Positions 20,647-50,028 of a DNA stretch of 64,000 nucleotides are shown piece after piece. This DNA comes from Schmidtea nova (lineage: Eukaryota). The notes beneath the pieces were generated by a model. That model saw only the letters and a program-made list of their open reading frames with translations, did not search any database and was not told where the DNA came from. Each line of letters opens with the position of its first letter. Within the stretch, counting starts at the first letter, position 1. The stretch lies in contig CM097883.1 of NCBI GenBank assembly GCA_044892505.1, positions 159,836,001 through 159,900,000 of the forward strand. Direction: 5' to 3'. The position numbers and the translations under genes are program-made.

Positions 20647-21030
20647 TGCTGGTGTGTTGGTTAGATTGACAACTGAGATCATTAGGATTTTATATGTTAG
20701 GGTGATCTCGCCAACATAAAAACATTCCCCCGCTGACACCCATGATGTATCCCTAACTACTCATCATGTTGGTGCTGTGTCAACGTTGTGAAATGACAAG
20801 GCAGGTGAGCAACCTTTCGGCTACTATTCCCTTGTTTATTCACGGGTCCGCCACTACCGATAGAAGGTGTCTGTGGCTTTCTTTCGGTCCCACTTATGCT
20901 CTTTTCTATTGTCCTAGGGTGATTTAATCTTAGCGCATCTGCAGTTTTTCATGAATCCGGGTTTTATTTATATTCAATTCTCAGACATTCCACACACAAA
21001 CAAGACAAGTCAAATCATTCGTTTTATACA

Positions 21031-21036
21031 TTTATT
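21031..21036 (-). promoter_or_regulatory. Putative polyadenylation signal in the LTR
   Basis: AATAAA overlapping the ORF-B stop, followed ~25 nt later by GU-rich TTGTCTTGTTTGTGTGTGG. Confidence 0.55.
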
Positions 21037-21613
21037 TATAGTTTAACAATACAGAGGGTCGGATTACATTTAGTAGTTCTTGCTCGGATAGACCACTGAG
21101 CAAGTCTACCTCTATTCCTACGCGATCTGCATATGCGCGTCTCTCCCTGCGCTTTTTCGCTCCCAAGCGATTCCGTCTCTTTGTCCGTTTCGAGCCTTCC
21201 AGAATTATTGGGGATGTTGTGGTAGTTGTGATTGGGATGGTTTCTATTTCCGTTTGGGTACTTGTTGTCCTCGATATTGTGTCCACCCACCGATTAAAGG
21301 TGCTAGCCCTGATCACTGGGCGTAATTGCTCGGTGATGAACTCCTGGGTTGATGCCCTCAAGTAATTCGACAGCTCCATCTTTAGTGCGGCGACCTCCCT
21401 AGCTTGCTCGTCGATTGTTCGTTCCGCCCTGTATCTGGCTTGTAAGATGGCTTTAACCCTCTCCGGATTAAACCATGTTGTCTTAATTCGCTGGTGCTCC
21501 TCATTCAGTTGTCTCAAGCGACTCTCGAGGACACGAGATCGTGCTCTATGTTCGTGTGACTCTTGCTTGTAATTTCGATTGGGATTTTCGTCCATATCTG
21601 AGTAATGTATCAT
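21032..21613 (-). CDS. LTR-encoded ORF-B, 193 aa, coiled coil plus Arg-rich motif
   Basis: Open in the 3' LTR; KRTKRRNRLGAKKRRERR basic tract; homologous pseudogene at 6863-7398. Confidence 0.75.
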   Translation of the reverse strand: MIHYSDMDENPNRNYKQESHEHRARSRVLESRLRQLNEEHQRIKTTWFNPERVKAILQARYRAERTIDEQAREVAALKMELSNYLRASTQEFITEQLRPVIRASTFNRWVDTISRTTSTQTEIETIPITTTTTSPIILEGSKRTKRRNRLGAKKRRERRAYADRVGIEVDLLSGLSEQELLNVIRPSVLLNYK

Positions 21614-21790
21614 TAACTAGGATATATATGCATTGTTTGGTTTCTCAGTCATCATTTTATGGTTAAACAACTGCATTCCTATCCTTACTCATTCCTCATA
21701 CATCCCAAATCAAAACAAAAACCCTTTTAAATGGATACATATATTTGCGATTCACAACAGATATTCGTTTATTGGGTGTTGTCCTCGTGA

Positions 21791-22423
21791 TCAATTGTAT
21801 GGTCGTAACTCTTGATTGGCCGGGTTCTCGTCTCGGCGAATCCCTGTTTCATGGTATAGTTCGGGGGCTGGATTCCAACTCAGTTTGTTTTGATAAATGA
21901 ACACCTCCCAGAGGCGAAGGTCTTTGGGCTCGGGGTGTTGATCCACGGAAACACTGCCTGGGGCATTCGGGTAAACGAAGACTTCCCCAGTGTCACCACA
22001 CCGAGGCCTGTCTAGCAGCAAATACCCGAGTTGGCCGAATGCCTGCCCGGTCATCATTCCGGTGCTTAGTACCCAGCGGGGTTGTCGTGTTTCATCTACA
22101 AATTGATAGAACCATCTCTTGTACCCATCTTTGGTGGGGTTCGGGGAGGGCGTCCAATCGACATCACCTTCCCACCTCAGCTGTAGTTGGAATGCACAGG
22201 CGGGAATACTCGCCGCGGTGCTCATATGGGTCCTTGTCCATCGACGCAGGTGTCTACGTGCGGAGTTGAAAATTTGGCGTGGGGCCTCCTTCTCTCCTTG
22301 GATTTCGGTAGGTACTTTTGGTGTGACGAGGGAGCGGATGCGCCGTTTCCTCCGTAGAATGTACTCCTCTAATTTGACGGTTAGGGGTTCTGTCGCATCC
22401 TTTACGAGATATTCTGTTTTCAT
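21791..22423 (-). CDS. LTR-encoded ORF-A, 210 aa, unknown function
   Basis: Open 210-codon frame in both LTRs, GC-richer than its surroundings, with RRKRR, its own AATAAA after the stop and CAG-A-ATG at the start. Confidence 0.65.
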   Translation of the reverse strand: MKTEYLVKDATEPLTVKLEEYILRRKRRIRSLVTPKVPTEIQGEKEAPRQIFNSARRHLRRWTRTHMSTAASIPACAFQLQLRWEGDVDWTPSPNPTKDGYKRWFYQFVDETRQPRWVLSTGMMTGQAFGQLGYLLLDRPRCGDTGEVFVYPNAPGSVSVDQHPEPKDLRLWEVFIYQNKLSWNPAPELYHETGIRRDENPANQELRPYN

Positions 22424-24092
22424 TCTGTCCCTCTGAAATGGAATTTTAAGTTAACTGACAGACTCTATCATCGACCATCGATATTTATGTCGATCAACCT
22501 ACTTGGTTTATTGTTCTACTGGCCGTAGGCCTTAGTAGTTCGTACATAATTTACTAGACTATTGGTCGCAGTGTTCAAGTAGGTGGTGAATTTACTTGGG
22601 TGAGTTGATACACTCCGCAATTTCAGTCGGTTTTAGCTATGCTCATTTAGGCTGATTATTTACAATCAGATTTTTCGTTACATTAAATTTCTCATCGATC
22701 ATTTTTATTCATCAAACCTGGTTCATTCACAGAGCATCATTAGCAACTATCAAGATTCACGTCGCGGGAAAAATTTTTTGTAATCCCTTAGTCGACTACT
22801 GTGTCGAGAAACGCACTAATTTTTATCTACTATCGGGTCTGACTTTTCATGCCCTTTGTGGGTTATATGTGTATATCTAACAGCTCATTCGGTTCACTAC
22901 TGTGCTTTGGTGCTAATGTCTTTTGACCGCGATGCTACGCTTTACCTACCTCAATTCTCGTTGATTTTTATGTACTAGCACTCCTTGAAGGTACACCCCT
23001 CGTCACGGTACCTCATGCATATATTTTCCCTTGCGAAATGAGCTTTACCTCGATTTTATTTATGACCATTAACTATCACTCGATACCCTATCATCGTGAT
23101 GTATAACGTTTATACTAGGTCATCTCTACCTTGATTTAGTTCCTGATCATTAGGTCTTACTCGATACCCTATGTGCATTTAACCCCTTCCGCTTTCCAAA
23201 TATTTAGTACACCTATAGTCCCGCCGCATCAGCACCTCACAACCGAAAGGTTGTGTTGCGCTGAGAGGCCCGAGAATCCGTCAGGCTGTTAGGCCTCCGG
23301 AAAACCTTATGGATTTTAATATGATTAACAATTATAATTATGAGGGTTTAAAGTAACAATCCAACACACAACAATTACCTTTTATTTTTCCTTCAAGTTG
23401 ATTTTACAATGTTCTCAGTGCTCAACTGCAAGATACACTTGGTAAAAATGACATTGTCAAATACTGATTTGACTTCAGTATTTATACTGAACCGGTGTTG
23501 TTGGTTAGCCAATCAGCATCGAGTATGTGTGTATGTTTGCTTCATTTTTCATGTTGTCGGCTTTTTGCTGCCTAACTTAACTTGCCGATTTGTTTGGTTA
23601 ATCATGCGGTAAGTTTTTCTTAGTCATCAATTTATTTTATTTTATTTTTGTTTTAGGTCTTTGGTGACATCCGCCCACGCGCTGTCATATTCCAATTTTA
23701 TCTGCTTCGCATGAGTGAGTTTTGAAGATTTTTTGTTGTTTTGATTTATATTTTATTTCTTTTAGATGTTGCCGCCTATTTTGTTACGCTTTGGTGTTGG
23801 TAATTTATTTTGTTGTTATTCTGTATTTAATTTATTTTATTGATTGTATATTATTTTCAGATGCTGCTCGATTTGGCTGGCCCAACATCACTCGGGGTCC
23901 CCTAAAATTGCGTCCCGCAATTACATGCATATACCTACATCAACATACATAAAAAGTTCGTGACAGAACTTACATGCAAAACCACATAAGGTGGTAGCTT
24001 TTATACACATTTATACAAAGTCACACATTGTCATTGTCATGTTTATATTGTTTATACACAGTTTCATGTTTCTGGCTCATAGGGGTTGATTT

Positions 24093-24617
24093 TCAGGTCC
24101 TTTCACTGGTTGACTGCATTTCGTATCGGGCTTGGATTTGTCGTAGATGACTTCTCATCCTTTGTTGGGTTTTTGCTTCTCTTTTGGCGCATCTACACAT
24201 TATCGTTTGTTGTTGTTTGAGGCTTCTGATTCGGTACAGGGTATAGGTAATCACGATGATCAGGATGATTGTCAATATTGTCATTGTGACTATTCCAACG
24301 ATGATCCATCTGTTTCGGATTTCGGATTCGATTTGGGTTTGACCTTTGATTGGCTTTAGGTGATCTTGAAATGTTTTATGGATTTCTCGGATCTTCTCGA
24401 TTTGACTGAATAGGGTTTGTAAGGGTTTGCGATGATCATGACTGATCCTCATTTGTCGGATTAATTGTTTCAAGTCTTCTCTGACTTCGTTTAGTTGTTT
24501 TTCGATCTCTTGGGATATTTCGTTTGACAGGGTTCTTTGGATTTCGGTTGTCGAACAGTTCATGATTATTGCTGTTAACATAATCGTTAGGATTGATAGG
24601 ATTTTGAGCCAGATCAT
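24093..24617 (-). CDS. Cargo ORF, 174 aa, predicted type I membrane protein
   Basis: N-terminal hydrophobic signal, coiled-coil ectodomain, TM WIIVGIVTMTILTIILIIVITYTLY, basic tail. Confidence 0.75.
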   Translation of the reverse strand: MIWLKILSILTIMLTAIIMNCSTTEIQRTLSNEISQEIEKQLNEVREDLKQLIRQMRISHDHRKPLQTLFSQIEKIREIHKTFQDHLKPIKGQTQIESEIRNRWIIVGIVTMTILTIILIIVITYTLYRIRSLKQQQTIMCRCAKREAKTQQRMRSHLRQIQARYEMQSTSERT

Positions 24618-24690: not shown

Positions 24691-25851
24691 TTACACATCC
24701 GTCTCCTCTGGTTCATGGAACCCTTCGTCTTGGAGTTCCATTGGTGGTGGTGGTATAAATGGTAACCACACCACTATACTTCTCCACATTGCAATTTCAT
24801 CTTGATACGTTCGAGAGATTTGTATCTCTTCATCTAACAGATACTCCATATAGTCTGATTGTTCGCTTAGAGTTTCGATTTGTCTTTCCATTTCTTCCAC
24901 TTTCCTCTTCAGGGCTTCTGTTTCTGTTGGTCCGGTTTCTACTTCTATGGTTTCTTTCTCTGCTTTCAGGGTTCGTATTTGTTGTTTCAGTTCCTCGTTT
25001 TCTTTCGTCAAATTCGTTATGTTTTCCTCGTAAGCTCGGTTTGATTCCGCATGTCTTTCTTTCACTGCTTTCAACTCCATTTTCTTTTGAGTCACCACCC
25101 CTTGATAACCATTTACATCTCTTTCCAGACTTTCTTTTTCCCTGATCAACTTTTGTCTTTCCACTTCCTCTTTCTGTCTAATGCCTCGCATTTCTCCATT
25201 TATCATCTGTATTTGCCATTGCGTTTTCTTTAGTTCCTTTGCCTGTTCTCGAATAAATCGCTGTCGTTTTCGACTCCATTCTTTGTTTGCTTGTTCTTGT
25301 CGTTTTCTCTGTTCCAATTCCTCTTTCAATTCGTCTATCTCTTGATATAATTTCCAATCTTTGCTGTATGCTGTCCTTCCGATTATCTCTTTGGCTTCTT
25401 TATACACTCGTTTCGACTCCATCTTCCAATGTCTCGCTTGAGTTTTGATTGCTAGTATTTTTACCTCCATTTTTTCCTCTTGTTTCTCCCTCTCTTCTCT
25501 TCGCGTTTTCTTCATATTTTTATAATGTTCTGCTTGTTTTCTCATCAATTGATAGGTCTCTTCTATCTTCTGTCGACTTCGTACATTCGTTCCTTCAAGC
25601 TTCTCTATTTGTGTTGTCAGTTGTACTATCTCTTTATTCACTTCCTCGAGTTCCAGTTGATATAACTCCATTTGTCTTTCGCATTTTAGTTTCTCGTAGA
25701 AATTGTTTGTCATTACTTCGTTTAATTCTCTGGTTCTTTGTTCCACTTCCATTTTACATCTACTTTCGATTTCTCTTTCTATTGCTTCTCGTTCGTTCGC
25801 CATCTCGTTTCTCGTTTCATCTTCGATTACATGTTCATTTGCGTTTTCCAT
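24691..25851 (-). CDS. Cargo ORF, 386 aa, long coiled-coil protein ending -ETDV
   Basis: E/K/R/Q-rich heptads over most of its length; C-terminal PPPP and EETDV. Confidence 0.8.
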   Translation of the reverse strand: MENANEHVIEDETRNEMANEREAIEREIESRCKMEVEQRTRELNEVMTNNFYEKLKCERQMELYQLELEEVNKEIVQLTTQIEKLEGTNVRSRQKIEETYQLMRKQAEHYKNMKKTRREEREKQEEKMEVKILAIKTQARHWKMESKRVYKEAKEIIGRTAYSKDWKLYQEIDELKEELEQRKRQEQANKEWSRKRQRFIREQAKELKKTQWQIQMINGEMRGIRQKEEVERQKLIREKESLERDVNGYQGVVTQKKMELKAVKERHAESNRAYEENITNLTKENEELKQQIRTLKAEKETIEVETGPTETEALKRKVEEMERQIETLSEQSDYMEYLLDEEIQISRTYQDEIAMWRSIVVWLPFIPPPPMELQDEGFHEPEETDV

Positions 25852-25940: not shown

Positions 25941-27353
25941 CTACTCTAACCATCCTTTCGTTGACTTCGTGTTCATCACTGTTGTACTTGTTTTCTTTTC
26001 GATCTCCAACTCTACATATAAGTTGTCGTCGTACAACATTTCCCACATTGTTTGGTGTGGTATGAATTTTGGTTCTCCAGTCGCTAATGAACATTCTGTG
26101 GTTGGTCTTTTGTAAGCTTCGTGCTTACCATCAATCTTGAATACTCTCGCTATTGTTTCTTTCGAGTTTCTCACTCTCATTATAGCCTTTGTTTCTAGTG
26201 GCCATTCTAATATGTCGTCGTAACCACCTTTACACAACGCAAAGAATAATGACACATGCGTTTCCTTTCCTGATCCATCTCCATTTGGATAAATTCTCAT
26301 CCGGACTTTGTATCCGTTTTTCCACAGATAGAATGGTGGACTTGTTACCGACACTTGACTTCCTGCTTTTGCTGCTGTGAACTTTTCGTTGAAGTTCTTG
26401 ATTTTCCATATATATGGTGCAACAGGTAAACTCTCGATATCCTCTGCATCTCGCACCCACATTTGATGTCGCACGTTTACTTCTTTTACTAGCGTCTCTA
26501 TGACTTTGATTTTCTCCATCATTTTCTCTCTGGTGAGCTCGAATAGCTCTCTTGTTTCTAGTAACAGCTCCGTCATTATTCTCTGAGATTCGATTTCTTT
26601 TCCCAGCTTCTGTATGGTTTGTTCCATTCCGTTCAAATTTGCTGTTAACATCTCGGCGTGTTGTACTGTTTCCGTTTCCAAATGCTCTTTCATCTCTTTG
26701 CTCGTTTTCTTTACTACACATCCTTGTTTACTCCATACGCACTTTCTTGGTCTTGATTCGCACTGTTCCCAATGTTCTCTCAACATCACTTCTTCTCCGG
26801 TTCCGCAATTACTTGGACAAATTCCTCTGAATTTTCCACACACTTTCTCTTCTGCTACGTTGAGATGTTCTGTTTCGATTATCTCTCTTGTCTCTCTTTG
26901 TTCGCAGTATTGACACTCTATTATCTCTGCTTTGCACTCATCTTTGTGATTTTTCGACTGCTTGATGGTTATCGTCTGTTGACACTTTTCACATATCGCT
27001 TTCTTGTTTTCACATTTCCCCAGATGTTGTCTTAACTCGATTATTGGTCCTTTCCATTCACATGGTTGGTTTGTACACTCTGTTTTTATCTTCCAGATCT
27101 CCTTTTGGATTGCTTTGTCTGGTTTCGTCTCGTTGATTAGTAGTTTATCGTCACACTCTGGACATTTTCTTGTCTCACTTTCACTGATTATTTGCAATAT
27201 ACACTTGGTGCACATCCTGCATCCACATTCCGTTTGTCTCGGTTTTAACAGTAAATTTTTACACTTTACACACGTCACATTTACTCCCCATTGTCGATTC
27301 TCTCCTCTTAGAATCTCGATTGTTTGGTAATCTGCTTCGTTTTCTGCTCTCAT
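25941..27353 (-). CDS. TRAF: Cargo ORF, 470 aa, TRAF-like protein (RING, TRAF zinc fingers, coiled coil, MATH)
   Basis: RING CVKC..KPRQTECGCRMCTKC..CPEC; Zn finger CTNQPCEWKG..HLGKC; MATH YIWKIKNF...SPPFY...GYKVRMRIYPNGDGSGKETHVSLFF...YDDILEWP. Intronless. Confidence 0.93.
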   Translation of the reverse strand: MRAENEADYQTIEILRGENRQWGVNVTCVKCKNLLLKPRQTECGCRMCTKCILQIISESETRKCPECDDKLLINETKPDKAIQKEIWKIKTECTNQPCEWKGPIIELRQHLGKCENKKAICEKCQQTITIKQSKNHKDECKAEIIECQYCEQRETREIIETEHLNVAEEKVCGKFRGICPSNCGTGEEVMLREHWEQCESRPRKCVWSKQGCVVKKTSKEMKEHLETETVQHAEMLTANLNGMEQTIQKLGKEIESQRIMTELLLETRELFELTREKMMEKIKVIETLVKEVNVRHQMWVRDAEDIESLPVAPYIWKIKNFNEKFTAAKAGSQVSVTSPPFYLWKNGYKVRMRIYPNGDGSGKETHVSLFFALCKGGYDDILEWPLETKAIMRVRNSKETIARVFKIDGKHEAYKRPTTECSLATGEPKFIPHQTMWEMLYDDNLYVELEIEKKTSTTVMNTKSTKGWLE

Positions 27354-27443: not shown

Positions 27444-27794
27444 CTATACATCCTCAGTTGAATCTGGCTCTGGATACACGTCTATCTCATTTACAATCCA
27501 GCTCGTCCAACTATCTGGTATCTCTTCCTCTTCATGTCTCGTTAATCTGTCAATTTCTTCTGCTTGCCAGTTGTTCACTTCATTCAATGTTCGGTTCTCG
27601 TTCTGTAATTCGTTTATCTGTAGTTGTTGAATCTCGATTTTGTTCATTGCTTCGAAATTACAGTTATAACTCTCGGTTAATAATTGCGTTTTTGCCGTCA
27701 ACTGGCTCTGTAATTCATTTACTGTTCTGGCTAGCAGGTCACATTGTACTTTCCATCTTGTCATCATCGACATCTCTGTGGTTCCTTGATTCAT
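27444..27794 (-). CDS. Cargo ORF, 116 aa, short coiled-coil protein
   Basis: Heptad pattern; acidic C-terminus YPEPDSTEDV resembling the end of the 386-aa ORF. Confidence 0.65.
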   Translation of the reverse strand: MNQGTTEMSMMTRWKVQCDLLARTVNELQSQLTAKTQLLTESYNCNFEAMNKIEIQQLQINELQNENRTLNEVNNWQAEEIDRLTRHEEEEIPDSWTSWIVNEIDVYPEPDSTEDV

Positions 27795-27916: not shown

Positions 27917-30900
27917 CTATACAACTATTACTGGTTTTCCTTCGTACAGTTCCTCGTCCTCGATCTGTACCCACATCTCTTCGTGTTTTGATCGTCTTTT
28001 CAGCTCTTCTCGTACTTCTTTTGGTAGTTTTATGTTGTAATTCGTGACCTTTACGTCTGGCCATTTTACTGCTATGGTCTTATTTCTCATGCCATATCTC
28101 CAACATACTATCATGATCGTTATCAGCGGTATACACCCTATGAATACTCCCATGCTGATTAATCCCATTATTGTTTTCCCAATGCTCATCTTCGGAGTTT
28201 CACTTTGGTTTGTCATCACGCCATATTGACCTTTCCATTCTGCTTCCCATTGTTCATATTGTTGTTGTCTCTGTCTGACTTCTTCGATCACTTTCTCTGG
28301 TTCCCATCTTTCTTGTTGGTTTGGTAATTTTTCCTCCTTCTCGTTTTGTTCTCTCTTCTGACTAAATTCTCGGAATTCTAACTTTTTGATTCTCCTCTTT
28401 ATCGGCGTGTAATAGGTTTCGCACCTTTCTTGTGGATTTCCTTGTGCGTCCACTTCTTCGATTGCACACACTTCGTATTCTGCGTTTGTTTTCAACTTCC
28501 TCATTTCTACCTCGATTATTTCTCCTTTATCATTTGATGTCTTTTGACAGTTTCGTGGGGACTTTCCCATACTGTTTGGCATTAATGTCCAACAGATTTC
28601 TAGGACCTTTTTATGGATCTTCCATATTATCAACGTTGTTGATTCCGGTTCTTTTTCTATTGTCGTCCTTTCTGTTGTTACCTGTTGAACTCCTTGACTG
28701 TTGGCTGTCGTGGTTCTTCTTGACTTTCTTTTCCTCTGTCGACTTCTTCCCATTTCGATCGTTCTTGTTCCGTTAATTTGCTCTGGCGTCTTGTACAGTT
28801 TGCACTCCAGGCTTCTTTGTATTATTTCTCTTATTCTTCGGATTACGCAGATTTCATATGCTTGTCCGACTTCGAATCCATTTAGTTGAAACGGGATTCC
28901 TCGTTCTCTCGTTCTGCATTGCGGTATTACGTTGCTGGTCGGTACTCCGATGTATTTTCTCCAACACATCCCAATTGTTCTCCGACCAATGCTTTTTATC
29001 TCCACGGTTACTACTTCATTCGCAATCGTTTCTTGATCTTGTTTCTTTCTTTTTGGGAACTCAATGATCTCCTTTGCTTGGAACACTTTACACTCGCTTG
29101 TTCCTGGTCTGTTTCCGTTTGCTGCTTTTTCCATGAGACATAGTTCACATTTTTTATCTGTCTCTATTTCTGTTATTTCGATTTCTTCATTTGTCTCTGC
29201 TTCCCGACTTTCTCTTGTCTCGCTGATTCCAATTACTTCATTATTTCGTCCCCAACATCTTCCATTCGTTGTTCGTTGATCTTGGATGTTTACTAACGTC
29301 ATCACGCTGATATCTATGTCTTCCATGATTCTCTTAATGAGGATTAATATTAATGCTACACATATCAGTTCTGGTTGGAATGTTAATTTTCCCGCTGGAT
29401 TTTTGGTTATTCTTTCTTTCTCTGTTCGGTTTCTGATTCCTTCTTCTGCTTCCGATTGATTCTTCCCTTTCTCCGATTCCACTTCTGTTCTTCTCGTTGT
29501 CTCTTCACTTCTTTTCCCAATCCATTTCTGTATCTTCAGCGCTTCCGTTGCTTTGTATAATTGACAGGCAGTTACTTGAGGTGCTTTTGGTTCTCCTCTC
29601 TGCTTTACTGCGCATATTATGTATGACTTTTCTTTCTCCAACCCTTTGATTTGGATGACGTCTCGCTTCAAGTCTGACAATATACATTTCAGCGTATCGT
29701 TTTTCTTCAGGTTTTCTTTCCAGCATATTCTTTCGTATACTTCGTTTCCTCTGATTATTTCCAGCGTGACGTATTGTTTCTTGGCTTCGCCTTGTCCGAT
29801 GATCGTTATCAATATCGCAATACACAACATTTCCGGTCTCAAAAGTAGACTTCCTGCTCGTTTTCCATAGTTCGTACTTTCGTCTTTTGTTCCTCTGTTT
29901 TCTCGTTCTTCGGCTTCTTCCTTTTTGTCGTTTCTCGTTGGCTTCGGTTCTTCTTGTCTTTCTTTTTCATTATCCTCCGTTCTTTTGTTGTCATTGTCTT
30001 CGTTGTTCTTTTCGTTGTTACTTTTGTCGTCGAAATCTTTGTAACCACCCCCTGGTCCTTTCGAAATGTCGTCCTCGACATTAATTTCTTTAATCAATCT
30101 TTCATACGCTTGAACCGCGAGTGTGCTAGACTCGAATTCACGTATTTCCATATCCTTGGATGGTTCTATGTTTTCTAGTCCACTTTGCTTGATCGTTTCT
30201 TTGGCATTTGCCCATTCATTCACATATTTTCTGAACAAGTCTTTCCATCTTCCCGTTCGTTCCTGTTCTTTTGGGTTGTTCGTAAATTTCAAATCTCTTC
30301 TCTTCAAGAATTCTTCTACTATCTCTGGCTTTTTGTGTCTTAGTAACGCGCTTCTGATACACCAATTCTGATTCTGTTCCATATGGTCATTGATCTTGAA
30401 CACTGGTTCCTTGGTGATCGGATTCACCCATGTTAGTAATGCTCTCGTTTTCTCTATGTCGTGTATCATTACCGTCAGACTGAAATTCTTTACGTTATTC
30501 GCCAGATATTCGATATCATCTTGTTTCTTGATGGACTTTATGAACTTGATCATCTCGAAGTTGTTCCACTGTATTGCGATATCTATGATGGAATTATTCT
30601 TTCCATTTTTCTCTTCGATTTTTGCTCCTGCTTCGTATAACTCGTTTAGCACTTTCAACTTCGTCTTCTTCCTTGCTGCGATTATCATGATTGTATCTCC
30701 ATTATCATCAACCGTATTCATGTCTGCTTCGCACTTGACCATCGCTTTCGTTATTTCTAGCGCTTCGTTTTCTTTCTTTCGACGTAATGCCCAGTGTATC
30801 GGCAATCTCCCATCCTTTGATAATAGGAATGTTACTGGCATTTGATTTTTGATCGTTTCTATGTCACTCTCGTTATAATCTCCTTGTGCGTATCTGTGCA

Positions 30901-36900: not shown

Positions 36901-39900
36901 TATCCATTGTGTCGATCTTGGGTTTCGCATTCGGCACTTCTTGTTTCGACACGTATATTCCTGGATAGTTTGTTTCGTATACTGTTGTACTGCACTTAAG
37001 GGTTGCTTTCCCTTTTATGAATCTCATGCCTACATCCTGATTTGTGGTTATCAACACTGTTGGTGTGGTTCTCATCTCTATTCGTTTTTCTCTATGATCT
37101 GGTTTCAATTGTCTTTTATTCTCTAAAGCCTCTTTGAGATGTTTTGCTCTAGCTTTGTCATCATCGTCTTCTTCTTGGAAGGTTTTTCCTTGAATTTCGT
37201 CGAACTTTGCTCCTTGTAGCAGTTGTAATTGACATTCGTTCACTTTTGGTTTATACACCAAAGTTGACATTCCCGTTTGACACATGCTTCTGTCAATTTT
37301 ACACATGGATAACGTTTTCATTTCTCCTGTTGTTGGTTCGAAGAATGCTTCGTAGCTTTTCAGTTCGACTATATACGTATCCATTACCACTAAGTTGGTT
37401 GCAGGTGCTCCAAATATCGGATAGGTTTCTCCTTGACAATATCCTTCTCCTCCCGTAATCCGTCCTGCTACATAATACGTCTGCTGCAACATCATTCCTG
37501 GCTTTCCTTTTATCTTGATTTTGTCTCTCGTTGTCACTTCTCCATGTTTGAATAATGCTTCACAGTCTTCTCCTTGTAACACGATTGGTTCTCTTTCGGT
37601 TCCTGGCATGACAATTGCTGAATAATGTCCTCTACCACAATAGAATGCGAATCTCGTCTTTTGCACTTTGCATTCATTCACCATTGTCTTTATTAGTTCT
37701 GCCTCTTGATATACGTGGTACCATTGTTCTTTTTTGATCTCTTTCAATTCTACTGGAGTTGCATCTTTGCATTGCTCCGTACCTCTCAATGAGTACTTTT
37801 CTCCCAACTTCATTTGATCACAGTCAAATACTTCAAATGTTGTTACACCCTCTGTGCTTAACAACCATACTAACATCATCATGATTATCGAGTTTAAATT
37901 CAACGTCGATCTCCCGTTTCCTTGCATCGTTTGTCTATTCTCCATTTCTCTCAATACTCCTTCGAGTTTCTTTCTCATAACGTTAGACCCTTCTTTTGTC
38001 TGGTTCTCTTTTATGAACTTTTCCCATCCTCCTTTTCTGAGGATATATGGTTCAATTTCCTTCTCGATAATCATCGCCGTATTTTTAATATGTCTTCCCA
38101 TCGGACTTGACTTCGGGCTTCCTCGGCTTAGCGTTAACAAATTGTATATTGTATACGCGATTGCTACCAGATATTTGCTGTCCGTCTCTGCTCCGTTAAG
38201 TAGCCTTTTTATCAACATCGTGGTTCCTTGCCAATCTAGATGATTCGATTTTGTTTTTGCCTTTATCAATTCTGGCATAATCGGTGCTATTGCATTGTGT
38301 AGCATCCTTGCCTTTGTACTGGGTTCGTTTATTCGCCACAAATTCTTTAATTCCGGGTCAATTATTGCTAACACATCCATTATCGTTTTGGTGAGCCATT
38401 CTTCTCCTTGGCAGACTTGATTCTCTTCTTTTCCTCTGATTTCTGCGATTTTATCCAGTTTCTTCAAGCAAATCTCCCATTGCTCTTGTCTCCTTTCTTC
38501 CCTTGTCTTTGGGATTGTTGTTGCTGGATCTATCTTTGGTCTTCCTCTTGGTCGTTTCTCCATTCCCGTTCCGGTTTCTACAAATCTCGCTGCTCTTCCT
38601 GTTTCCTCTGTAACATCTCTTCCTTCGTTCGCTCGCTGTTCTAACCATCTTTCCATTTCTTGAGTAAACTGTGGTTGTTCTTGTTCGTCTTCCGAATCGT
38701 TTACCATTTCTATGACTACCTCCTGTTCCACTCCTTGATCGTCGATTTCTGCTGGTGACGTTATTGGCATCTCTACTATTCTGTCAAAAATGTTCGCCGT
38801 TGGTTTTTGAGTCAGTTTCGTTAATTCTTCTATCGCTTCGTCACTGTCTGTTAGTATCTCATCCACGTCATACGCTTCTGGCGGTGTTCTCTCTCTCGTT
38901 TTTATTGGTGTTGTCCTTGCTTGTCCCGAACTTGTTCCTGGGGTCATTGTTGACTTCATCGGACTTGGTGTACTCATGCTTCCTTTCGCTTTCTTTTCCT
39001 CTTTAAACTTCAGTGGTTGACCCACTATCTGTGCTACTGTTAACGTATTCATTAGATCCAATTGCACTGGTGTCAGCCAGATTTCCAAATTATTATCCAA
39101 CGATCGTCCTTGATGTTGCAGGTGGAATGGTAGTTCGTACATCAGTTTCTCTTTAACGCTTTTCACTTTTTCTGTTAGCATCACCCGAAACTCTTCTTTT
39201 CTTTGATTCGGATACATTATCCTCAAATGTATTTTCTGTGGCGTTTCTTCTGCAAACTCTTTGTTTCTCCACTTTTTTATTACATCGTCTAGTTGCTCTG
39301 GACACCACTCGTTAACTCTCTTGTATTCTGCTATCGCTTTAGCTACTTTTCTCAAGTTCGTTATGTCTTCTCCATTTGTGATTATGAATTGTGCTAAGCC
39401 TTTTATTGTTTGTCTCTTTCCCCGAGTATTTCCTCTCAATAGCTCGATCAATTCACTCGTTTTCTGTTTCTCCAATTCTGCCCATATTGCTGCAGTTTCT
39501 GGTCCGTCTAAGTCCGTTGGTAATAACCTCCTTGTTACCATACATATCCGTTTCGTATTCCGTTCGTGTCTGTCTTCTCCTTCCGGATCTTCTTCGTACA
39601 CGCCTCCTTTCACTTTCCAACATTTCTCTTTGTTATCCCATTGTTTCTCTACTGGCGTCAATCGTCGTCTGTTAAGATCCAATTCTCCCAAGATTGTCTC
39701 CCATTCTGGCTTCATCTGCCAGTTCCGATAGATTTCTACTATCTGCCTCAGCTTACGCATAACGTCCTCTTGTCGTTTCTTTTTCCTTTCCTCATCTCTT
39801 GGTGTTGCTCTTTGCACATCATCCATTCTGATGACATGTATTGTCTGATAATTATCCCATATGCCGATTTTATACGCTCGTCTTTCATCACGTTCATTCA

Positions 39901-42244: not shown

Positions 42245-42802
42245 TCACATTACCGCCGTAATTCTCATGTCGTTCATTGCCATATGCAATTCGAATAGGT
42301 TGGCTGCCTCCAACGCTTCATCTACCGTTTTACATCCTTTGCATCCCACTTGTGCTCTGATGTCAGGTCTCCTGAGACCTCGTACGAATAACGCTGTCAT
42401 CAATTCTTCGTCTACTGGGCTTCCTCTATTGAATGCCAGTTTCGCCAACTTTCTTAATTCACTTGCGTACACCGCATTTGACTCATTTCTCCTCTGTTTT
42501 CTTGCTGAGAACTCATCGAATGCTTCGTTCAACACTTTATTTATCCCAAACGTCTGTTGGAAGAACTCCTTGATTGCTTCCCACGTTCTGGGTGGATTAC
42601 TTCCCGATCTCTTCTCAATATACAGATCCAATGCGCTATCTTTCAAGTATAGCGGGATTCGATTCGCTAACGTTTCTGCACTCCATCCGCATATATCCAC
42701 GAATATGCCAAATTCCTTCAGGAACGTGTCCAATCTACTGGCGTCTCCATTAAATGGTTCGCCCTTGAATTTTTCTCTTAGATCCTCTCTGTGATCACTC
42801 AT
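42245..42802 (-). CDS. gag: Gag capsid domain of giant element, in frame with the polyprotein across one TGA
   Basis: Retrotrans_gag-like (PFNGD...TWEAIKEFF...RKQRRNESNAVYASELRKLA...LFVRGL). TGA at 42245-42247 is followed by 12 sense codons and then the polyprotein ATG. Confidence 0.88.
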   Translation of the reverse strand: MSDHREDLREKFKGEPFNGDASRLDTFLKEFGIFVDICGWSAETLANRIPLYLKDSALDLYIEKRSGSNPPRTWEAIKEFFQQTFGINKVLNEAFDEFSARKQRRNESNAVYASELRKLAKLAFNRGSPVDEELMTALFVRGLRRPDIRAQVGCKGCKTVDEALEAANLFELHMAMNDMRITAVM

Positions 42803-43678
42803 CCCGATTCCACTATCTTGGAATACTGTACTAGTTTTCTTTACTTCTAGTTCACCACTTGTTTCTGAATTCGACTCTTCTTCTTCGCTACTCTCTGTTT
42901 CGTTATCTCTTGATTCGCTTCTTGTTCTGTTTTCCCTGACTAGTTCACTGTCTATCGTCTCTACTTCGTTTTGTACTTCTAGATCTTCTGGGGTTTCTTC
43001 TTGATTCTCTTTATTACTCGAATTGTCGCTGATCTCTACTTGTTTGTTCTTTTGTTGCTTAGGCTTGTTACCTGTTCTTGTTCTTTTTGCTGCTTTTCTC
43101 TCTGCTTCCGTTAAGATTGGTATTATACCTGATCTTGTTTCTCGTCCCTCAATTTTGTCTATTCCTCAACTTCTTATATTCTCAATTGATTTTCTACTCC
43201 GCTTTTGTTTTGCTTCTTCTTTGCTTTGTTTCCTTTGATTGCTCTGACTGCTAGATTGCTTTGAATTGCTTGATTGATTTGTTTCCTTAAAACAAATAAT
43301 CACTTACACGATACGTCCCCGTTATCGTGTTTCTCGTCCCTCTCACGGGTGTAGTCATAATTCATGAAGATCCCCATTTTTCCCATTTCCCTTGATTTTA
43401 AGTCTATTTAAATTATCTATGCAGTCGCATCAATTATCTATTCTTTATCAAATACACCAATTACTTTTCCCCAGTTCCCCAATTACTTTGTCGCTCAGCG
43501 CTCTTATTATCCCCTTTACTTTTCTCAGGCTTCTCTGGCTCTGAGTTCAAATCCCCCTTATCTGTCTACTACTCTATTTCCCAACTATTCGCTTTATCTC
43601 CTATTCGCACTACGTTTACTACTTCATTTCAATTCTCATCTCTACTCACCTTTACTTCAACTGACATCTCTCGTTGGC

Positions 43679-44141
43679 CTGCTGGGTTTTCCAGTCAGCG
43701 CTTTTAATCTCACCTTTTATCTCGAACTCTGTTTCTCTCAACTTCACTCATTATCTCATTAGCCTGCTGGGTTTTCCAGTCAGCGCTTTTAATCTCACCT
43801 TTTACTTCTGCTTCATTATTCTCGACCTCAATTGTCGTTTCATTAGCCTGCTGGGTTTTTCCAGTCAGCGCTCTTATTATCCACCCTTTATCTCTTCACT
43901 GTCGACTTTTAACTGCTCGTTACTCCGATGATCATCACTTTTGACCTGCTGGGTCTTCCAGTCAGCGTCCTCAATTTTACCACTTTATTATCGTTCACTT
44001 TTATTCTCTCGATCTTTCCTGATCGTTATCATTGACCTGCTGGGTTTTCCAGCTAGCGTCTTTACCACTTTACTGTCCTAACAAACCGGTTTCATTTTAT
44101 TCCCATCGAATCTCATGGTCTGCTGGGTTTTCCAGTCAGCA
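43679..44141 (-). repeat. Six spaced copies of a ~22-nt hairpin motif in the 5' leader
   Basis: Plus-strand CTGCTGGGTTTTCCAGTCAGCG starting at 43679, 43764, 43848, 43946, 44037 and 44120. Confidence 0.9.
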
Positions 44142-44468
44142 CCCTCCACTTACTCACTTTACTTTGCTACTCCTCCTTGTATGCATACTTTAACATCATT
44201 AGGCCACATAATCAGCTTTACTCGCATTTATCAATACCCAGGTGCGCACCTTCAACTCTCTCGTTATTAATTCGGTTTCTTTCAACCCTTATTCCTCATT
44301 ACTCGCTATTCATTTTCACTATTCATCATTTATCCTCATTATTATTTATTCATCTCCATTATCGCTTGTTGATCTTCACTATCCGGATAGTTTTATGCGT
44401 AATTTAGTCCTCATCTGCCTCACTTCGTCGTCTTTCTCGTGGGCTTTTACTCAATATTTTATTTCGAA

Positions 44469-44753
44469 CGAGAACTATGCTCACTGCTGAGAACTATGCT
44501 CACTAACGAGAACTATGCTCAATGACGAGAACTATGCTCAATGACGAGAACTATGCTCAATGACGAGAACTATGCTCACTAACGAGAACTATGCTCACTG
44601 ACGAGAACTATGCTCACTAACGAGAACTATGCTCACTGACGAGAACTATGCTCACTGACGAGAACTATGCTCACTGACGAGAACTATGCTCACTGACGAG
44701 AACTATGCTCACTGACGAGAACTATGCTCACTGACGAGAACTATGCTCACTGG
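44469..44753. repeat. 19-bp tandem array, 15 copies, with degenerate copies to ~45090
   Basis: CGAGAACTATGCTCA(C/A)T(G/A)A x15 (285 bp). Confidence 0.97.
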
Positions 44754-45786: not shown

Positions 45787-46245
45787 TTACAAGTACACTG
45801 CTATTTTCTCGGATACGGGAAGGTTGCACATAGGACATCGTTCGTTTATTTTACAGTCATTACAGAATCGGAAATGCCCACATGGCAACAACATTATCTG
45901 TATCTTATTCATTTCACAGATATGACACGTCAGATATTGTCTCGTATGTTCTGTTGTTATTCTTATCCACTCATCGTGTTTTGTTGTTAACTGTTGTTCT
46001 AGCCTGTGGCACTCGATATTCATCTCAGGGTTGTTTAATCTTTCTCTATACCACTGATATCGTGTTGCTGTATCCACTGTGTTCTTATTCTCACTTAAGC
46101 TCATCATCCTTTCGGCTCTTTCTGTGTTGTTTGTCGGTTCGTGATATTCTCCTACCTCGAGTCGTTTTAACTTTCTCGTTATTGTCTCCACTGTCTCGTT
46201 GTTTGTTTCGAAAAACGTTTGCATTTCTTTTATTTTGTTCTCCAT
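45787..46245 (-). CDS. Cargo ORF, 152 aa, C-terminal IAP/Mdm2-type RING finger
   Basis: CHIC...PCGH..CNDC....CPMC ending in hydrophobic IAVYL*, the terminal RING arrangement of IAP-type E3 ligases. No BIR seen. Confidence 0.85.
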   Translation of the reverse strand: MENKIKEMQTFFETNNETVETITRKLKRLEVGEYHEPTNNTERAERMMSLSENKNTVDTATRYQWYRERLNNPEMNIECHRLEQQLTTKHDEWIRITTEHTRQYLTCHICEMNKIQIMLLPCGHFRFCNDCKINERCPMCNLPVSEKIAVYL

Positions 46246-46762
46246 CCCCTGAATGAATTCTCGTTAATTTTGTTATCGATTTTTATTTATTATTTATCAT
46301 TCCTATTCTATGGTAGCCCTACTGTTCGCTTTCTGTTGTTCTGTTTTACGTCGTTACTTGCGTATCCCCCCGTGTTCTTGAATGTCGCCCCGACATGATC
46401 ATTGCTAGTTGCTCACACTCATACCATTTTCATGCGCTCTTTTCATCATACTTTTACATCATGCATACTTCACTTTTCATACTGTCACTCCACATACTAT
46501 TCATCCTGCTTCATTCATCCTCATATTTACACATTCATACTTTCGTTCTCTTGCATACTTTTATCATGCTCATCATTCTCATTATTTTACACTCATACTT
46601 TTATTTATTATTTTTCAACCCGATTCATTCTTGCTTCAGGACCCTCAAACCCTCTATTATTTACTTTACTTTTCCTCGCTAAATTCGATTCCATCCCGGT
46701 TCATGCGCTCTAAAACTGTCCGCAGATATCGAATTCACTTTTTCCCACAAAGATCGATTTGA

Positions 46763-46780
46763 ATCCCGGCTGAGCCCCCA
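46763..46780 (-). promoter_or_regulatory. Primer binding site, tRNA-Pro-like
   Basis: Sense TGGGGGCTCAGCCGGGAT, 6 nt after the 5' LTR. Its complement ..ATCCCGGCTGAGCCCCCA resembles the tRNA-Pro 3' end (..TCCCGGACGAGCCCCCA in many animals). Confidence 0.75.
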
Positions 46781-46786
46781 AATTTA

Positions 46787-49700
46787 TGCTGGTGTGTTGG
46801 TTAGATTGACAACTGAGATCATTAGGATTTTATATGTTAGGGTGATCTCGCCAACATAAAAACATTCCCCCGCTGACACCCATGATGTATCCCTAACTAC
46901 TCATCATGTTGGTGCTGTGTCAACGTTGTGAAATGACAAGGCAGGTGAGCAACCTTTCGGCTACTATTCCCTTGTTTATTCACGGGTCCGCCACTACCGA
47001 TAGAAGGTGTCTGTGGCTTTCTTTCGGTCCCACTTATGCTCTTTTCTATTGTCCTAGGGTGATTTAATCTTAGCGCATCTGCAGTTTTTCATGAATCCGG
47101 GTTTTATTTATATTCAATTCTCAGACATTCCACACACAAACAAGACAAGTCAAATCATTCGTTTTATACATTTATTTATAGTTTAGCAATACAGAGGGAC
47201 GGATTACATTTAGTAGTTCTTGCTCGAATAGACCACTGAGCAAGTCTACCTCTATTCCTACGCGATCTGCATATGCGCGTCTCTCCCTGCGCTTTTTCGC
47301 TCCCAAGCGATTCCGTCTCTTTGTCCGTTTCGAGCCTTCCAGAATTATTGGGGATGTTGTGGTAGTTGTGATTGGGATGGTTTCTATTTCCGTTTGGGTA
47401 CTTGTTGTCCTCGATATTGTGTCCACCCACCGATTAAAGGTGCTAGCCCTGATCACTGGGCGTAATTGCTCGGTGATGAACTCCTGGGTTGATGCCCTCA
47501 AGTAATTCGACAGCTCCATCTTTAGTGCGGCGACCTCCCTAGCTTGCTCGTCGATTGTTCGTTCCGCCCTGTATCTGGCTTGTAAGATGGCTTTAACCCT
47601 CTCCGGATTAAACCATGTTGTCTTAATTCGCTGGTGCTCCTCATTCAGTTGTCTCAAGCGACTCTCGAGGACACGAGATCGTGCTCTATGTTCGTGTGAC
47701 TCTTGCTTGTAATTTCGATTTGGGATTTTCGTCCATATCTGAGTAATGTATCATTAACTAGGATATATATGCATTGTTTGGTTTCTCAGTCATCATTTTA
47801 TGGTTAAACAACTGCATTCCTATCCTTACTCATTCCTCATACATCCCAAATCAAAACAAAAACCCTTTTAAATGGATACATATATTTGCGATTCACAACA
47901 GATATTCGTTTATTGGGTGTTGTCCTCGTGATCAATTGTATGGTCGTAACTCTTGATTGGCCGGGTTCTCGTCTCGGCGAATCCCTGTTTCATGGTATAG
48001 TTCGGGGGCTGGATTCCAACTCAGTTTGTTTTGATAAATGAACACCTCCCAGAGGCGAAGGTCTTTGGGCTCGGGGTGTTGATCCACGGAAACACTGCCT
48101 GGGGCATTCGGGTAAACGAAGACTTCCCCAGTGTCACCACACCGAGGCCTGTCTAGCAGCAAATACCCGAGTTGGCCGAATGCCTGCCCGGTCATCATTC
48201 CGGTGCTTAGTACCCAGCGGGGTTGTCGTGTTTCATCTACAAATTGATAGAACCATCTCTTGTACCCATCTTTGGTGGGGTTCGGGGAGGGCGTCCAATC
48301 GACATCACCTTCCCACCTCAGCTGTAGTTGGAATGCACAGGCGGGAATACTTGCCGCGGTGCTCATATGGGTCCTTGTCCATCGACGCAGGTGTCTACGT
48401 GCGGAGTTGAAAATTTGGCGTGGGGCCTCCTTCTCTCCTTGGATTTCGGTAGGTACTTTTGGTGTGACGACGGAGCGGATGCGCCGTTTCCTCCGTAGAA
48501 TGTACTCCTCTAATTTGACGGTTAGGGGTTCTGTCGCATCCTTTACGAGATATTCTGTTTTCATTCTGTCCCTCTGAAATGGAATTTTAAGTTAACTGAC
48601 AGACTCTATCATCGACCATCGATATTTATGTCGATCAACCTACTTGGTTTATTGTTCTACTGGCCGTAGGCCTTAGTAGTTCGTACATAATTTACTAGAC
48701 TATTGGTCGCAGTGTTCAAGTAGGTGGTGAATTTACTTGGGTGAGTTGATACACTCCGCAATTTCAGTCGGTTTTAGCTATGCTCATTTAGGCTGATTAT
48801 TTACAATCAGATTTTTTGTTACATTAAATTTCTCATCGATCATTTTTATTCATCAAACCTGGTTCATTCACAGAGCATCATTAGCAACTATCAAGATTCA
48901 CGTCGCGGGAAAAATTTTTTGTAATCCCTTAGTCGACTACTGTGTCGAGAAACGCACTAATTTTTATCTACTATCGGGTCTGACTTTTCATGCCCTTTGT
49001 GGGTTATATGTGTATATCTAACAGCTCATTCGGTTCACTACTGTGCTTTGGTGCTAATGTCTTTTGACCGCGATGCTACGCTTTACCTACCTCAATTCTC
49101 GTTGATTTTTATGTACTAGCACTCCTTGAAGGTACACCCCTCGTCACGGTACCTCATGCATATATTTTCCCTTGCGAAATAAGCTTTACCTCGATTTTAT
49201 TTATGACCATTAACTATCACTCGATACCCTATCATCGTGATGTATAACGTTTATACTAGGTCATCTCTACCTTGATTTAGTTCCTGATCATTAGGTCTTA
49301 CTCGATACCCTATGTGCATTTAACCCCTTCCGCTTTCCAAATATTTAGTACACCTATAGTCCCGCCGCATCAGCACCTCACAACCGAAAGGTTGTGTTGC
49401 GCTGAGAGGCCCGAGAATCCGTCAGGCTGTTAGGCCTCCGGAAAACCTTATGGATTTTAATATGATTAACAATTATAATTATGAGGGTTTAAAGTAACAA
49501 TCCAACACACAACAATTACCTTTTATTTTTCCTTCAAGTTGATTTTACAATGTTCTCAGTGCTCAACTGCAAGATACACTTGGTAAAAATGACATTGTCA
49601 AATACTGATTTGACTTCAGTATTTATACTGAACCGGTGTTGTTGGTTAGCCAATCAGCATCGAGTATGTGTGTATGTTTGCTTCATTTTTCATGTTGTCG

Positions 49701-50028
49701 GCTTTTTGCTGCCTAACTTAACTTGCCGATTTGTTTGGTTAATCATGCGGTAAGTTTTTCTTAGTCATCAATTTATTTTATTTTATTTTTGTTTTAGGTC
49801 TTTGGTGACATCCGCCCACGCGCTGTCATATTCCAATTTTATCTGCTTCGCATGAGTGAGTTTTGAAGATTTTTTGTTGTTTTGATTTATATTTTATTTC
49901 TTTTAGATGTTGCCGCCTATTTTGTTACGCTTTGGTGTTGGTAATTTATTTTGTTGTTATTCTGTATTTAATTTATTTTATTGATTGTATATTATTTTCA
50001 GATGCTGCTCGATTTGGCTGGCCCAACA
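46787..50028 (-). repeat. 5' LTR of giant element (3242 bp)
   Basis: Direct repeat of 20647-23887. Contains ORF-A (47932-48564) and ORF-B with a +1 frameshift near 47720. Confidence 0.97.

What the first reader, a model, noticed from the sequence alone, without database searches (positions are those of the whole stretch)
20647..50028. 29.4-kb Gypsy element organised like a virus, with an apoptosis/innate-immunity toolkit
Seen: 3.24-kb LTRs, TSD, PBS, a 4763-aa polyprotein and seven additional sense-strand ORFs. Cargo includes Bcl-2-like, IAP-type RING, TRAF, ankyrin and ubiquitin-like modules. Known: poxviruses, herpesviruses and baculoviruses use these families to block cell death and NF-kB signalling. 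Giant planarian Gypsy elements with extra domains were reported as 'Burro' (recalled from Grohme et al. 2018; whether this family was covered is unverified). Inference: with an env gene this looks like an infectious endogenous virus with its own host-manipulation genes rather than a simple retrotransposon.
Basis: partly seen in the sequence, partly recalled or inferred. Interest (0 to 1): 0.9.

Follow-up and report, generated by a model that had tools for sequence, protein, structure and literature searches.

The report
Giant planarian Burro-type envelope retrotransposon
This is a recently inserted but damaged copy of a known kind of giant flatworm retrotransposon; its envelope gene and its extra cell-death and signalling genes are kept intact by selection across many copies, and two families of it share one recently exchanged envelope gene.

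Summary
The element is real: minus strand, 50028 to 20647, with 3.24-kb LTRs 0.22% apart, a 4-bp target duplication and a primer-binding site. Its order is gag, ubiquitin-like, Bcl-2-like, env, PR, RT, RNase H, IN, ankyrin in one frame, plus TRAF and RING genes. This is the published Burro architecture (PMC6431247). A gB-type env in flatworm gag-env-pol elements is also published (PMC13524379).

Correction: '4763 aa' comes from a stop inside gag found in 0 of 29 other copies; the family frame is about 5,080 codons.

Added here:
- All seven accessory ORFs, two of them inside the LTR, stay open across copies, with omega 0.06-0.36.
- The env folds as a class III, chuvirus-like fusogen (pLDDT 89; omega 0.02).
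- The env block is 92-93% identical in DNA to that of a sister family whose flanking genes are only 71% identical, which points to a recent env exchange.
- A C-terminal membrane module may be fibronectin-III-like (lead only).

Expression, particles, infectivity and host manipulation were not tested.

The parts
46787..50028 (-). 5' LTR, 3242 nt
20647..23887 (-). 3' LTR, 3241 nt; 0.22% from the 5' LTR
20643..20646 (.). 4-bp target site duplication (left)
50029..50032 (.). 4-bp target site duplication (right)
46763..46780 (-). Primer-binding site, 6 nt inside the 5' LTR; resembles a tRNA-Pro PBS (recalled, not tested against host tRNAs)
   Evidence: same sequence follows the 5' LTR in 7 other copies
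45787..46245 (-). 152-aa accessory ORF with C-terminal IAP-type RING, no BIR
   Evidence: Pfam PF13920 E 6e-9; cIAP/XIAP RING best PDB hits; open in 21 of 23 copies, omega 0.36
43665..44752 (.). Leader tandem arrays (85-nt and 19-nt units)
   Evidence: 10-21 copies of the 19-nt core in 23 other copies
42803..43162 (-). AUG-less coding extension upstream of the first gag AUG
   Evidence: open in 29 of 29 copies with no earlier AUG; omega 0.18
42245..42802 (-). Gag capsid domain, ended in this copy only by a stop at 42245-42247
   Evidence: PF03732; stop in 1 of 30 copies; omega 0.02
27917..42208 (-). Rest of the single polyprotein frame (4763 aa from the next AUG)
41909..42106 (-). Nucleocapsid, three CCHC knuckles
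39005..41362 (-). Three candidate ubiquitin-like repeats (41117-41362, 39818-40069, 39005-39235); weak support
   Evidence: profile's top two PDB hits E 0.08 (redesigned ubiquitin) and 0.38; omega 0.06-0.13
38009..38491 (-). Bcl-2-like domain
   Evidence: profile hits Bax and Bcl-xL at E 0.002-0.03; homologous region of related elements passes the Pfam Bcl-2 cut-off; omega 0.03
36089..37890 (-). Env: signal-like stretch, 556-aa class III (gB/chuvirus-type) ectodomain, transmembrane helix; block shared with the sister family
   Evidence: PF24664 E 7e-71; model pLDDT 89; fold hits; omega 0.02
35228..35500 (-). Aspartyl protease
33512..34564 (-). Reverse transcriptase and RNase H
   Evidence: omega 0.06
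32672..33187 (-). Integrase (zinc-binding and core), after RT/RNase H: Gypsy order
30536..31837 (-). Two ankyrin-repeat clusters
28094..29854 (-). C-terminal membrane module: hydrophobic stretches, four cysteine-containing repeats (fibronectin-III-like, lead only), transmembrane helix
   Evidence: omega 0.22-0.25
27444..27794 (-). 116-aa coiled-coil-like accessory ORF
   Evidence: open in 28 of 29, omega 0.06; 52% identical in the sister family
25941..27353 (-). 470-aa full-length TRAF (RING, zinc finger, coiled coil, MATH), intronless
   Evidence: open in 27 of 29, omega 0.15
24691..25851 (-). 386-aa coiled-coil (Smc-like by composition) accessory ORF
   Evidence: open in 25 of 29, omega 0.16
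24093..24617 (-). 174-aa ORF with signal-like start and transmembrane helix
   Evidence: open in 29 of 29, omega 0.20
21791..22423 (-). 210-aa ORF inside the LTR (also at 47932-48564)
   Evidence: 210-211 aa in 14 of 15 other LTRs; omega 0.29
21032..21613 (-). 193-aa ORF inside the LTR (truncated to 115 aa in the 5' LTR, 47172-47519)
   Evidence: 193 aa in 15 of 15 other LTRs; 30% identical LTR ORF in the sister family

Best explanation
A young, defective insertion of an active Burro-type family: a giant Ty3/Gypsy (Metaviridae) element of a planarian, with at least 137 copies in this genome. SHOWN: the family replicates by LTR retrotransposition (fresh LTR pairs, target duplications, solo LTRs). 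It encodes one frame of about 5,080 codons, gag-Ubl-Bcl2-env-PR-RT-RH-IN-ankyrin-membrane module, plus seven accessory ORFs, all under purifying selection. Its env is a well-formed class III fusogen that was exchanged recently with a sister family. INFERRED: the polyprotein is cut by its own protease and by signal peptidase, releasing env into the secretory path. Env gives enveloped particles that move between cells of the same animal, as Drosophila errantiviruses move from soma to germline (about 60%). Bcl-2-like, RING and TRAF proteins keep the producing cell alive or damp its stress and innate signalling (about 55%). The env exchange arose by template switching between co-packaged genomes. 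The window's copy cannot make the full polyprotein and is probably a passenger.
For: Architecture matches Burro point by point. Omega for variants shared by two or more copies: env 0.02, Bcl-2-like 0.03, RT-RH 0.06, TRAF 0.15, 386-aa 0.16, 174-aa 0.20, LTR 210-aa 0.29, RING 0.36; binomial p of about 1e-4 or smaller in each. Control: an off-frame 163-aa ORF inside TRAF gives 2.57 and has stops in 14 of 29 copies. The same gene order and 30-56% identical cargo proteins persist in a sister family whose synonymous sites are saturated. The env model (pLDDT 89) matches herpesvirus gB in the PDB (E 4e-13) and chu-like glycoproteins in BFVD (E 1e-36). Env DNA identity between families is 92-93% against 71% on either side; third-position identity is 0.81-0.84 against 0.53-0.59, and about 0.5 in RT where amino acid identity is 91-97%.
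Against: No expression, particle or function data were obtained. Selection shows the proteins matter to the element, not what they do. Bcl-2-like support is indirect and no BH1/BH3-groove function was tested. No BIR is present, so direct caspase inhibition is not implied. Copies were the top BLAST hits, biased to young and intact ones. Burro reference sequences could not be fetched, so membership rests on architecture, not on an RT tree with named references.
Confidence: 0.8

Rival explanations
1. Strictly intracellular retrotransposon. Env and cargo are selected for roles inside the producing cell (particle assembly on membranes, protein turnover, keeping neoblasts alive), and no particle leaves the cell.
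For: No particle or transfer data exist here; PMC13524379 section 11 says the entry mechanism of gB-type elements is unknown. Env is buried in frame between gag and pol, fixing a 1:1:1 ratio that is odd for a virion (inference).
Against: A complete fusogen fold with signal-like start and transmembrane helix, omega 0.02 like gag and pol, and an exchange between families limited to the ectodomain and membrane anchor are hard to explain without a fusion role.
Confidence: 0.3
2. A virus that still passes between animals (exogenous phase) and re-enters the germline, with accessory genes aimed at host immunity as in complex retroviruses.
For: Many accessory ORFs, two inside the LTR; very young insertions; env exchange between families; nearest env folds are chu-like RNA virus glycoproteins.
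Against: PMC13524379 (abstract and passages) finds gB-type env diverging with pol and host over long times. Relatives found outside this genome are distant, 46-55% in RT. No cross-host data.
Confidence: 0.12
3. Cargo genes are host genes captured recently and carried passively; the env similarity between families reflects constraint rather than exchange.
For: The host has a large TRAF cluster with intronless full-length members.
Against: The element's TRAF is only 26-34% identical over its length to the closest host TRAFs examined and does not group with them. Cargo omega is far below 1. Within-family third-position identity in env (0.89-0.94) is no higher than in the Bcl-2-like block (0.91), so env has no special synonymous constraint.
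Confidence: 0.04

Closest known systems
Burro1-4 / GYPSM1 of Schmidtea mediterranea (Grohme et al. 2018 and Jurka 2007, seen only as described in PMC6431247 section 7)
   Same: About 30 kb, internal region up to 25 kb (here 22.9 kb); one polyprotein near 4,900-5,100 aa; gag with three CCHC knuckles; Ubl, Bcl-2-like, in-frame env between Bcl-2 and PR; PR-RT-RH-IN; ankyrin; MATH/TRAF; accessory ORFs.
   Different: TRAF is a separate full-length gene downstream of the polyprotein, not a polyprotein domain. No BIR found. dUTPase-like domain not detected. LTR-internal ORFs, the fibronectin-III-like module and env exchange are not mentioned in the section I read; its figure and the Grohme supplements were not visible.
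Burro-like element of Dugesia (Girardia) tigrina (PMC6431247 section 7)
   Same: 5,140-aa ORF1 lacking MATH/TRAF, which sits in an accessory ORF.
   Different: There the TRAF ORF is upstream and gag has two knuckles; here it is downstream and gag has three. Midasin homology was not tested.
HSV/gB-type GAG-ENV-POL errantiviruses of Platyhelminthes (PMC13524379; six S. mediterranea entries in supplement file 2)
   Same: gag-env-pol order and class III env; the listed S. mediterranea env rows resemble this env by eye; within-species env recombination is proposed there.
   Different: Listed spans are 14.5-18 kb. The main text has no mention of Burro or Schmidtea, and the passages I read describe no cargo and no specific recent exchange.
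Anakin BEL/Pao elements with chuvirus glycoprotein in mosquitoes (PMC7642597, search listing; cited in PMC13524379; the name is recalled)
   Same: LTR element carrying a chuvirus-type class III glycoprotein.
   Different: BEL/Pao rather than Gypsy; no such cargo reported in what I saw.
Drosophila gypsy errantiviruses
   Same: Env-bearing Metaviridae; the model for cell-to-cell spread within an animal.
   Different: Their env is F-type (class I) and a separate third ORF; here it is class III and in frame before pol.

Membership tests
Ty3/Gypsy (Metaviridae) | LTRs with TG...CA ends, target duplication, PBS | tested here: met
Ty3/Gypsy (Metaviridae) | pol order PR-RT-RNase H-IN | tested here: met
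Burro | About 30 kb with multi-kb LTRs and internal region up to 25 kb | tested here: met
   29,382 bp, internal 22.9 kb
Burro | Single gag-env-pol polyprotein near 4,900-5,100 aa | tested here: met
   26 of 137 family matches lie in stop-free frames of 5,076-5,114 codons, counted by hand; window copy broken by a private stop
Burro | Env in frame between a Bcl-2-like domain and PR | tested here: met
Burro | MATH/TRAF and ankyrin cargo | tested here: met
   TRAF as an accessory ORF, as reported for the D. tigrina element
Burro | Ubi2/SUMO-like domain before Bcl-2 | tested here: inconclusive
   no Pfam hit; best PDB hit ubiquitin at E 0.08
Burro | dUTPase-like domain between PR and RT | tested here: inconclusive
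   conserved 96-aa block, omega 0.08, but no Pfam or PDB match
Burro1/GYPSM1 (the exact family) | BIR domain, and MATH inside the polyprotein | tested here: not met
   no BIR hit in any ORF; MATH in a separate ORF. Not Burro1 itself
Burro | RT groups with Burro1-4 | not testable with these tools
   no named Burro sequences available; tree of unnamed relatives only
Burro | Dugesiid planarian host | not tested
   inferred from the element's architecture and env resemblance
gB-type GAG-ENV-POL errantiviruses (PMC13524379) | Class III gB-like env ectodomain between gag and pol | tested here: met
Classical Drosophila errantivirus | F-type env as a separate third ORF | tested here: not met
Infectious endogenous virus | Enveloped particles that enter new cells | not testable with these tools
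   needs microscopy and biochemistry
IAP | BIR domain(s) plus RING | tested here: not met
   RING only

The most novel reading that the evidence does not exclude
Burro-type elements are working complex viruses of planarians. They spread as enveloped particles, swap envelopes between co-packaged families as vertebrate retroviruses do, carry a second, fibronectin-III-like surface protein that partners the gB-type fusogen or acts as a decoy receptor, encode LTR-internal accessory proteins, and supply a large share of the TRAF and Bcl-2-like coding capacity that tunes cell death in a regenerating animal.
Probability: 0.25. Interest if true: 0.8.

Novelty: new member of a known kind. Interest (0 to 1): 0.45.

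Why it matters
Burro's domain list and the provirus idea are in print, but in the searches I ran I found no paper testing whether the cargo is under selection or showing env exchange between Burro families. The results here turn a suggestion into a testable model: env is as constrained as RT, and the cargo is kept across two diverged families. About 93 of the 150 best MATH-domain matches in this genome have the element's score and length, and most of the 150 Bcl-2 matches lie in long frames typical of related elements. Counts of planarian TRAF and Bcl-2 'expansions' may therefore be inflated by mobile elements. BURRO1 is known to be transcribed when PIWI is lost (PMC8532177 passages), so the predictions can be tested in a standard model animal.

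Tried and rejected
1. Programmed read-through at the gag stop: rejected, the stop is in 0 of 29 other copies.
2. Assembly duplication of the LTRs: rejected.
3. Single-sequence fold of the Bcl-2-like region: pLDDT 49, no match at E 0.001; phmmer against the PDB and the ESM Atlas gave nothing. Uninformative.
4. Env sequence search against the PDB: nothing significant; only the fold search worked.
5. Fibronectin-III reading: profile against the PDB gave 0 hits, Pfam fn3 in 1 of 10 repeats at E 0.14, Atlas score 0.78 with its ten best named hits in one family or clan. Lead only.
6. dUTPase-like domain: no match.
7. Recent capture of TRAF from the host cluster: not supported; the tree is unresolved and used the 30 best-scoring of 150 matches plus 5 database proteins.
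8. Direction of the env exchange: the sister env clade falls inside this family in a quick unrooted tree; not tested further, not claimed.
9. Expression: no RNA holder listed; no evidence either way.
10. LTR 193-aa ORF: my aligner flagged frameshifts in 11 of 15 copies, but a 193-aa ORF is present in all 15, so the flag is an alignment effect in a diverged stretch and that omega (0.23) is less reliable.
11. Grohme et al. 2018 could not be read; its extended data and supplements may already show the accessory ORFs. PMC12583693 and PMC9241645 passages added nothing.
12. Host tRNA matching the PBS: left untested.
13. Earlier scan findings: none.
Full report
1. Observation. The element lies on the minus strand, 50028 to 20647 (29,382 bp). 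Its LTRs are 3242 and 3241 nt with TG...CA ends and differ by 7 substitutions and 1 indel (0.22%); both flanks carry the same 4 bases, and an 18-nt PBS-like site starts 6 nt inside the 5' LTR. Seven other LTR pairs are 0-0.15% divergent with their own 4-bp duplications, and six solo LTRs have them too (24 LTR loci examined of 40 listed). This is a real, recently active family and not an assembly duplication. A protein search gave 137 matches to this family among 150 scored, a lower bound.

2. Coding anatomy. Pfam places gag capsid at 42245-42802, then in the 4763-aa ORF the CCHC knuckles, a Monjiviricetes-type fusion glycoprotein (E 7e-71), protease, RT, RNase H, integrase and ankyrin repeats. 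Seven accessory ORFs lie on the same strand: a 152-aa RING protein before gag; 116-aa, 470-aa TRAF, 386-aa and 174-aa ORFs after the polyprotein; and 210-aa and 193-aa ORFs inside the LTR. The RING is closest to cIAP and XIAP RINGs, but no BIR was found.

3. This copy is broken. Gag capsid and the 4763-aa ORF are in one frame, separated by a stop at 42245-42247. That stop is in 1 of 30 copies examined, the window's own, so it is not programmed read-through. In the family the frame runs about 5,080 codons; 26 of 137 matches lie in stop-free frames of 5,076-5,114 codons, counted by hand. The frame is also open for 121 codons before the first AUG in 29 of 29 copies, none with an earlier AUG, with omega 0.18. 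A non-AUG start or a spliced first exon is inferred.

4. Uncertain labels. Pfam does not detect Bcl-2 or ubiquitin-like domains in this protein, and a single-sequence fold was useless. Bcl-2-like is supported indirectly. The matching region of two smaller env-bearing families hits PF00452 at E 6e-4 and 4e-3. A third family passes the Pfam cut-off and aligns to this polyprotein at 30-32% across the domain and env. A four-sequence profile retrieves Bax and Bcl-xL as its best PDB hits (E 0.002-0.03). Three ubiquitin-like repeats have weak support (E 0.08). Four cysteine-containing repeats between hydrophobic stretches near the C-terminus may be fibronectin-III-like: Atlas score 0.78, Pfam E 0.14 in 1 of 10 repeats, no PDB hit. 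That is a lead only.

5. Selection. I counted distinct variants against the window copy and compared non-synonymous to synonymous counts with a transition-weighted expectation. For variants shared by two or more copies, omega is 0.02 for gag capsid (29 copies) and env ectodomain (19), 0.03 for Bcl-2-like (19), 0.06 for RT-RH (9) and the 116-aa ORF (29), 0.15 for TRAF, 0.16 for the 386-aa, 0.20 for the 174-aa (29 each), 0.29 for the LTR 210-aa (15) and 0.36 for the RING ORF (23); p is about 1e-4 or smaller in each. An off-frame control ORF gave 2.57 with stops in 14 of 29 copies. The LTR ORFs keep their length in 14 of 15 and 15 of 15 other LTRs. Limits: copies were the best BLAST hits, variants were counted by site and not on a tree, and the estimate for the 193-aa ORF is unreliable.

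6. A sister family and an env exchange. A second family (13 of the 150 matches, frames up to about 5,690 codons) has the same gene order, with RING, 116-aa, TRAF, 386-aa, 174-aa and one LTR ORF 30-56% identical and synonymous sites saturated; the 210-aa LTR ORF has no clear counterpart. Against that background the env block (about 37843-35900) is 97-98% identical in protein and 92-93% in DNA between the families. The Bcl-2-like block and the stretch after env are 71% identical in DNA, and third positions in RT are near 0.5. This holds for 9 of 9 sister copies in the second half of env and for 8 of 8 that could be scored in the first half (9 of the 13 listed were examined). Within families env third positions are no more conserved than elsewhere, so constraint does not explain it. 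I infer a recent recombination that moved the ectodomain and anchor; the direction is not established.

7. The env. An AlphaFold2 model from a 117-sequence alignment has mean pLDDT 89. Its best PDB matches are herpesvirus gB (E 4e-13) and its best viral-library matches are chu-like and xinmo-like glycoproteins (E 1e-36). It is a class III fusogen, not the F-type env of Drosophila gypsy. A signal-like stretch precedes it and a transmembrane helix follows. Unnamed database polyproteins with the same env-before-protease order exist at 46-55% RT identity, and this genome holds smaller families with frames of about 3,070 and 3,400 codons and short LTRs in the two examined. The giants look like cargo-laden members of that wider lineage; the tree does not resolve the order of events.

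8. Mechanism. Shown: retrotransposition, selection on every gene tested, an intact fusogen fold, env exchange. Inferred from general retroelement and class III fusogen biology: the polyprotein is processed by its protease and by signal peptidase; env reaches membranes and gives particles that pass between cells of one animal (about 60%); Bcl-2-like, RING and TRAF proteins protect the producing cell or damp signalling (about 55%). How the downstream and LTR ORFs are expressed is unknown; no RNA run was listed.

9. Comparison with print. Arkhipova and Yushenova 2019 (PMC6431247, section 7 read whole) describe Burro: over 30 kb, a 4,873-5,140-aa polyprotein, CCHC, Ubi2/SUMO-like, BCL2-like, env in frame between BCL2 and PR with hits to mononegavirus glycoproteins, MATH/TRAF, BIR, ankyrin, TRAF as an accessory ORF in D. 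tigrina, the provirus hypothesis and the apoptosis-tinkering idea. Chary and Hayashi 2026 (PMC13524379; abstract, passages, section 11 and supplement rows) report gB-type GAG-ENV-POL elements in Platyhelminthes, list six from S. mediterranea, and propose within-species env recombination. PMC8532177 (passages) shows BURRO1 transcripts on PIWI loss. PMC6109357 and PMC11410931 (passages) report the planarian TRAF expansion and Gypsy abundance. Grohme et al. 2018 was not held, and figures and its supplements were not visible; they may already show the accessory ORFs. The element meets the Burro features I could test and differs from Burro1 itself (no BIR, TRAF outside the polyprotein). The host being a planarian is inferred, not tested.

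10. Verdict. A new member of a known kind. What I did not find in eight literature searches is the selection test, the LTR-internal ORFs, the possible fibronectin-III module and the recent env exchange. Interest 0.45; 0.8 if the element proves to be a working complex virus (probability about 0.25).

Noticed in passing
G000:C2, about 405-455 Mb (L119-L148): Large host TRAF/MATH gene cluster, including tandem copies and intronless full-length TRAFs 29-34% identical to the element's TRAF.
   Followed up: partly
genome-wide: About 93 of the 150 best MATH matches have the score and length of the element's TRAF, mostly in 476-codon frames; not each verified as element-borne.
   Followed up: partly
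genome-wide; L153-L158, L168, L169: At least three smaller gag-Bcl2-env-pol families (frames near 3,070, 3,393 and 3,401 codons; LTRs of 855-870 nt in the two examined), with unannotated downstream ORFs of 330-482 aa. One has Bcl-2 scores near the Pfam cut-off in over 100 matches.
   Followed up: partly
L150:785-4147: The sister family has more of the cysteine-containing C-terminal repeats (at least six aligned) than the window's four.
   Followed up: partly
copies on C1 (about 219.28 Mb), C2 (about 448.88 Mb), C3 (about 87.59 Mb): Spacing between gag and cargo matches is 3-5 kb shorter than in the window, suggesting internally deleted copies.
   Followed up: no
L118 and L115: An LTR with the same 4 bases on both sides and no PBS, whose downstream flank equals that of an LTR 26 kb further on; rearrangement or assembly effect.
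   Followed up: no
L120:135-390: A 78%-identical fragment of this family's LTR end lies beside a host TRAF gene.
   Followed up: no
window 9262-13061 and 55074-57234: Another retroelement (RT, DUF7047, RNase H-like, integrase; short terminal direct repeats) with a second, 85-95% similar degraded copy.
   Followed up: no
window 50980-53822: 822-aa RT ORF flanked by near-identical direct repeats of at least 300 nt, Penelope-like by layout (label recalled).
   Followed up: no
window 2000-3949 and 60113-61283: hAT-like transposase ORF (641 aa, weak Pfam hits) and a split mariner-type transposase.
   Followed up: no
window 20647-50028: The element is about 40% G+C against 27-43% (mostly 30-37%) in the flanks, and its coding strand is 36-45% A through the coding region.
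   Followed up: no
P0001-P0004, P0010-P0012, P0023: Distant env-before-pol polyproteins carry two or more aspartyl-protease-like domains.
   Followed up: no
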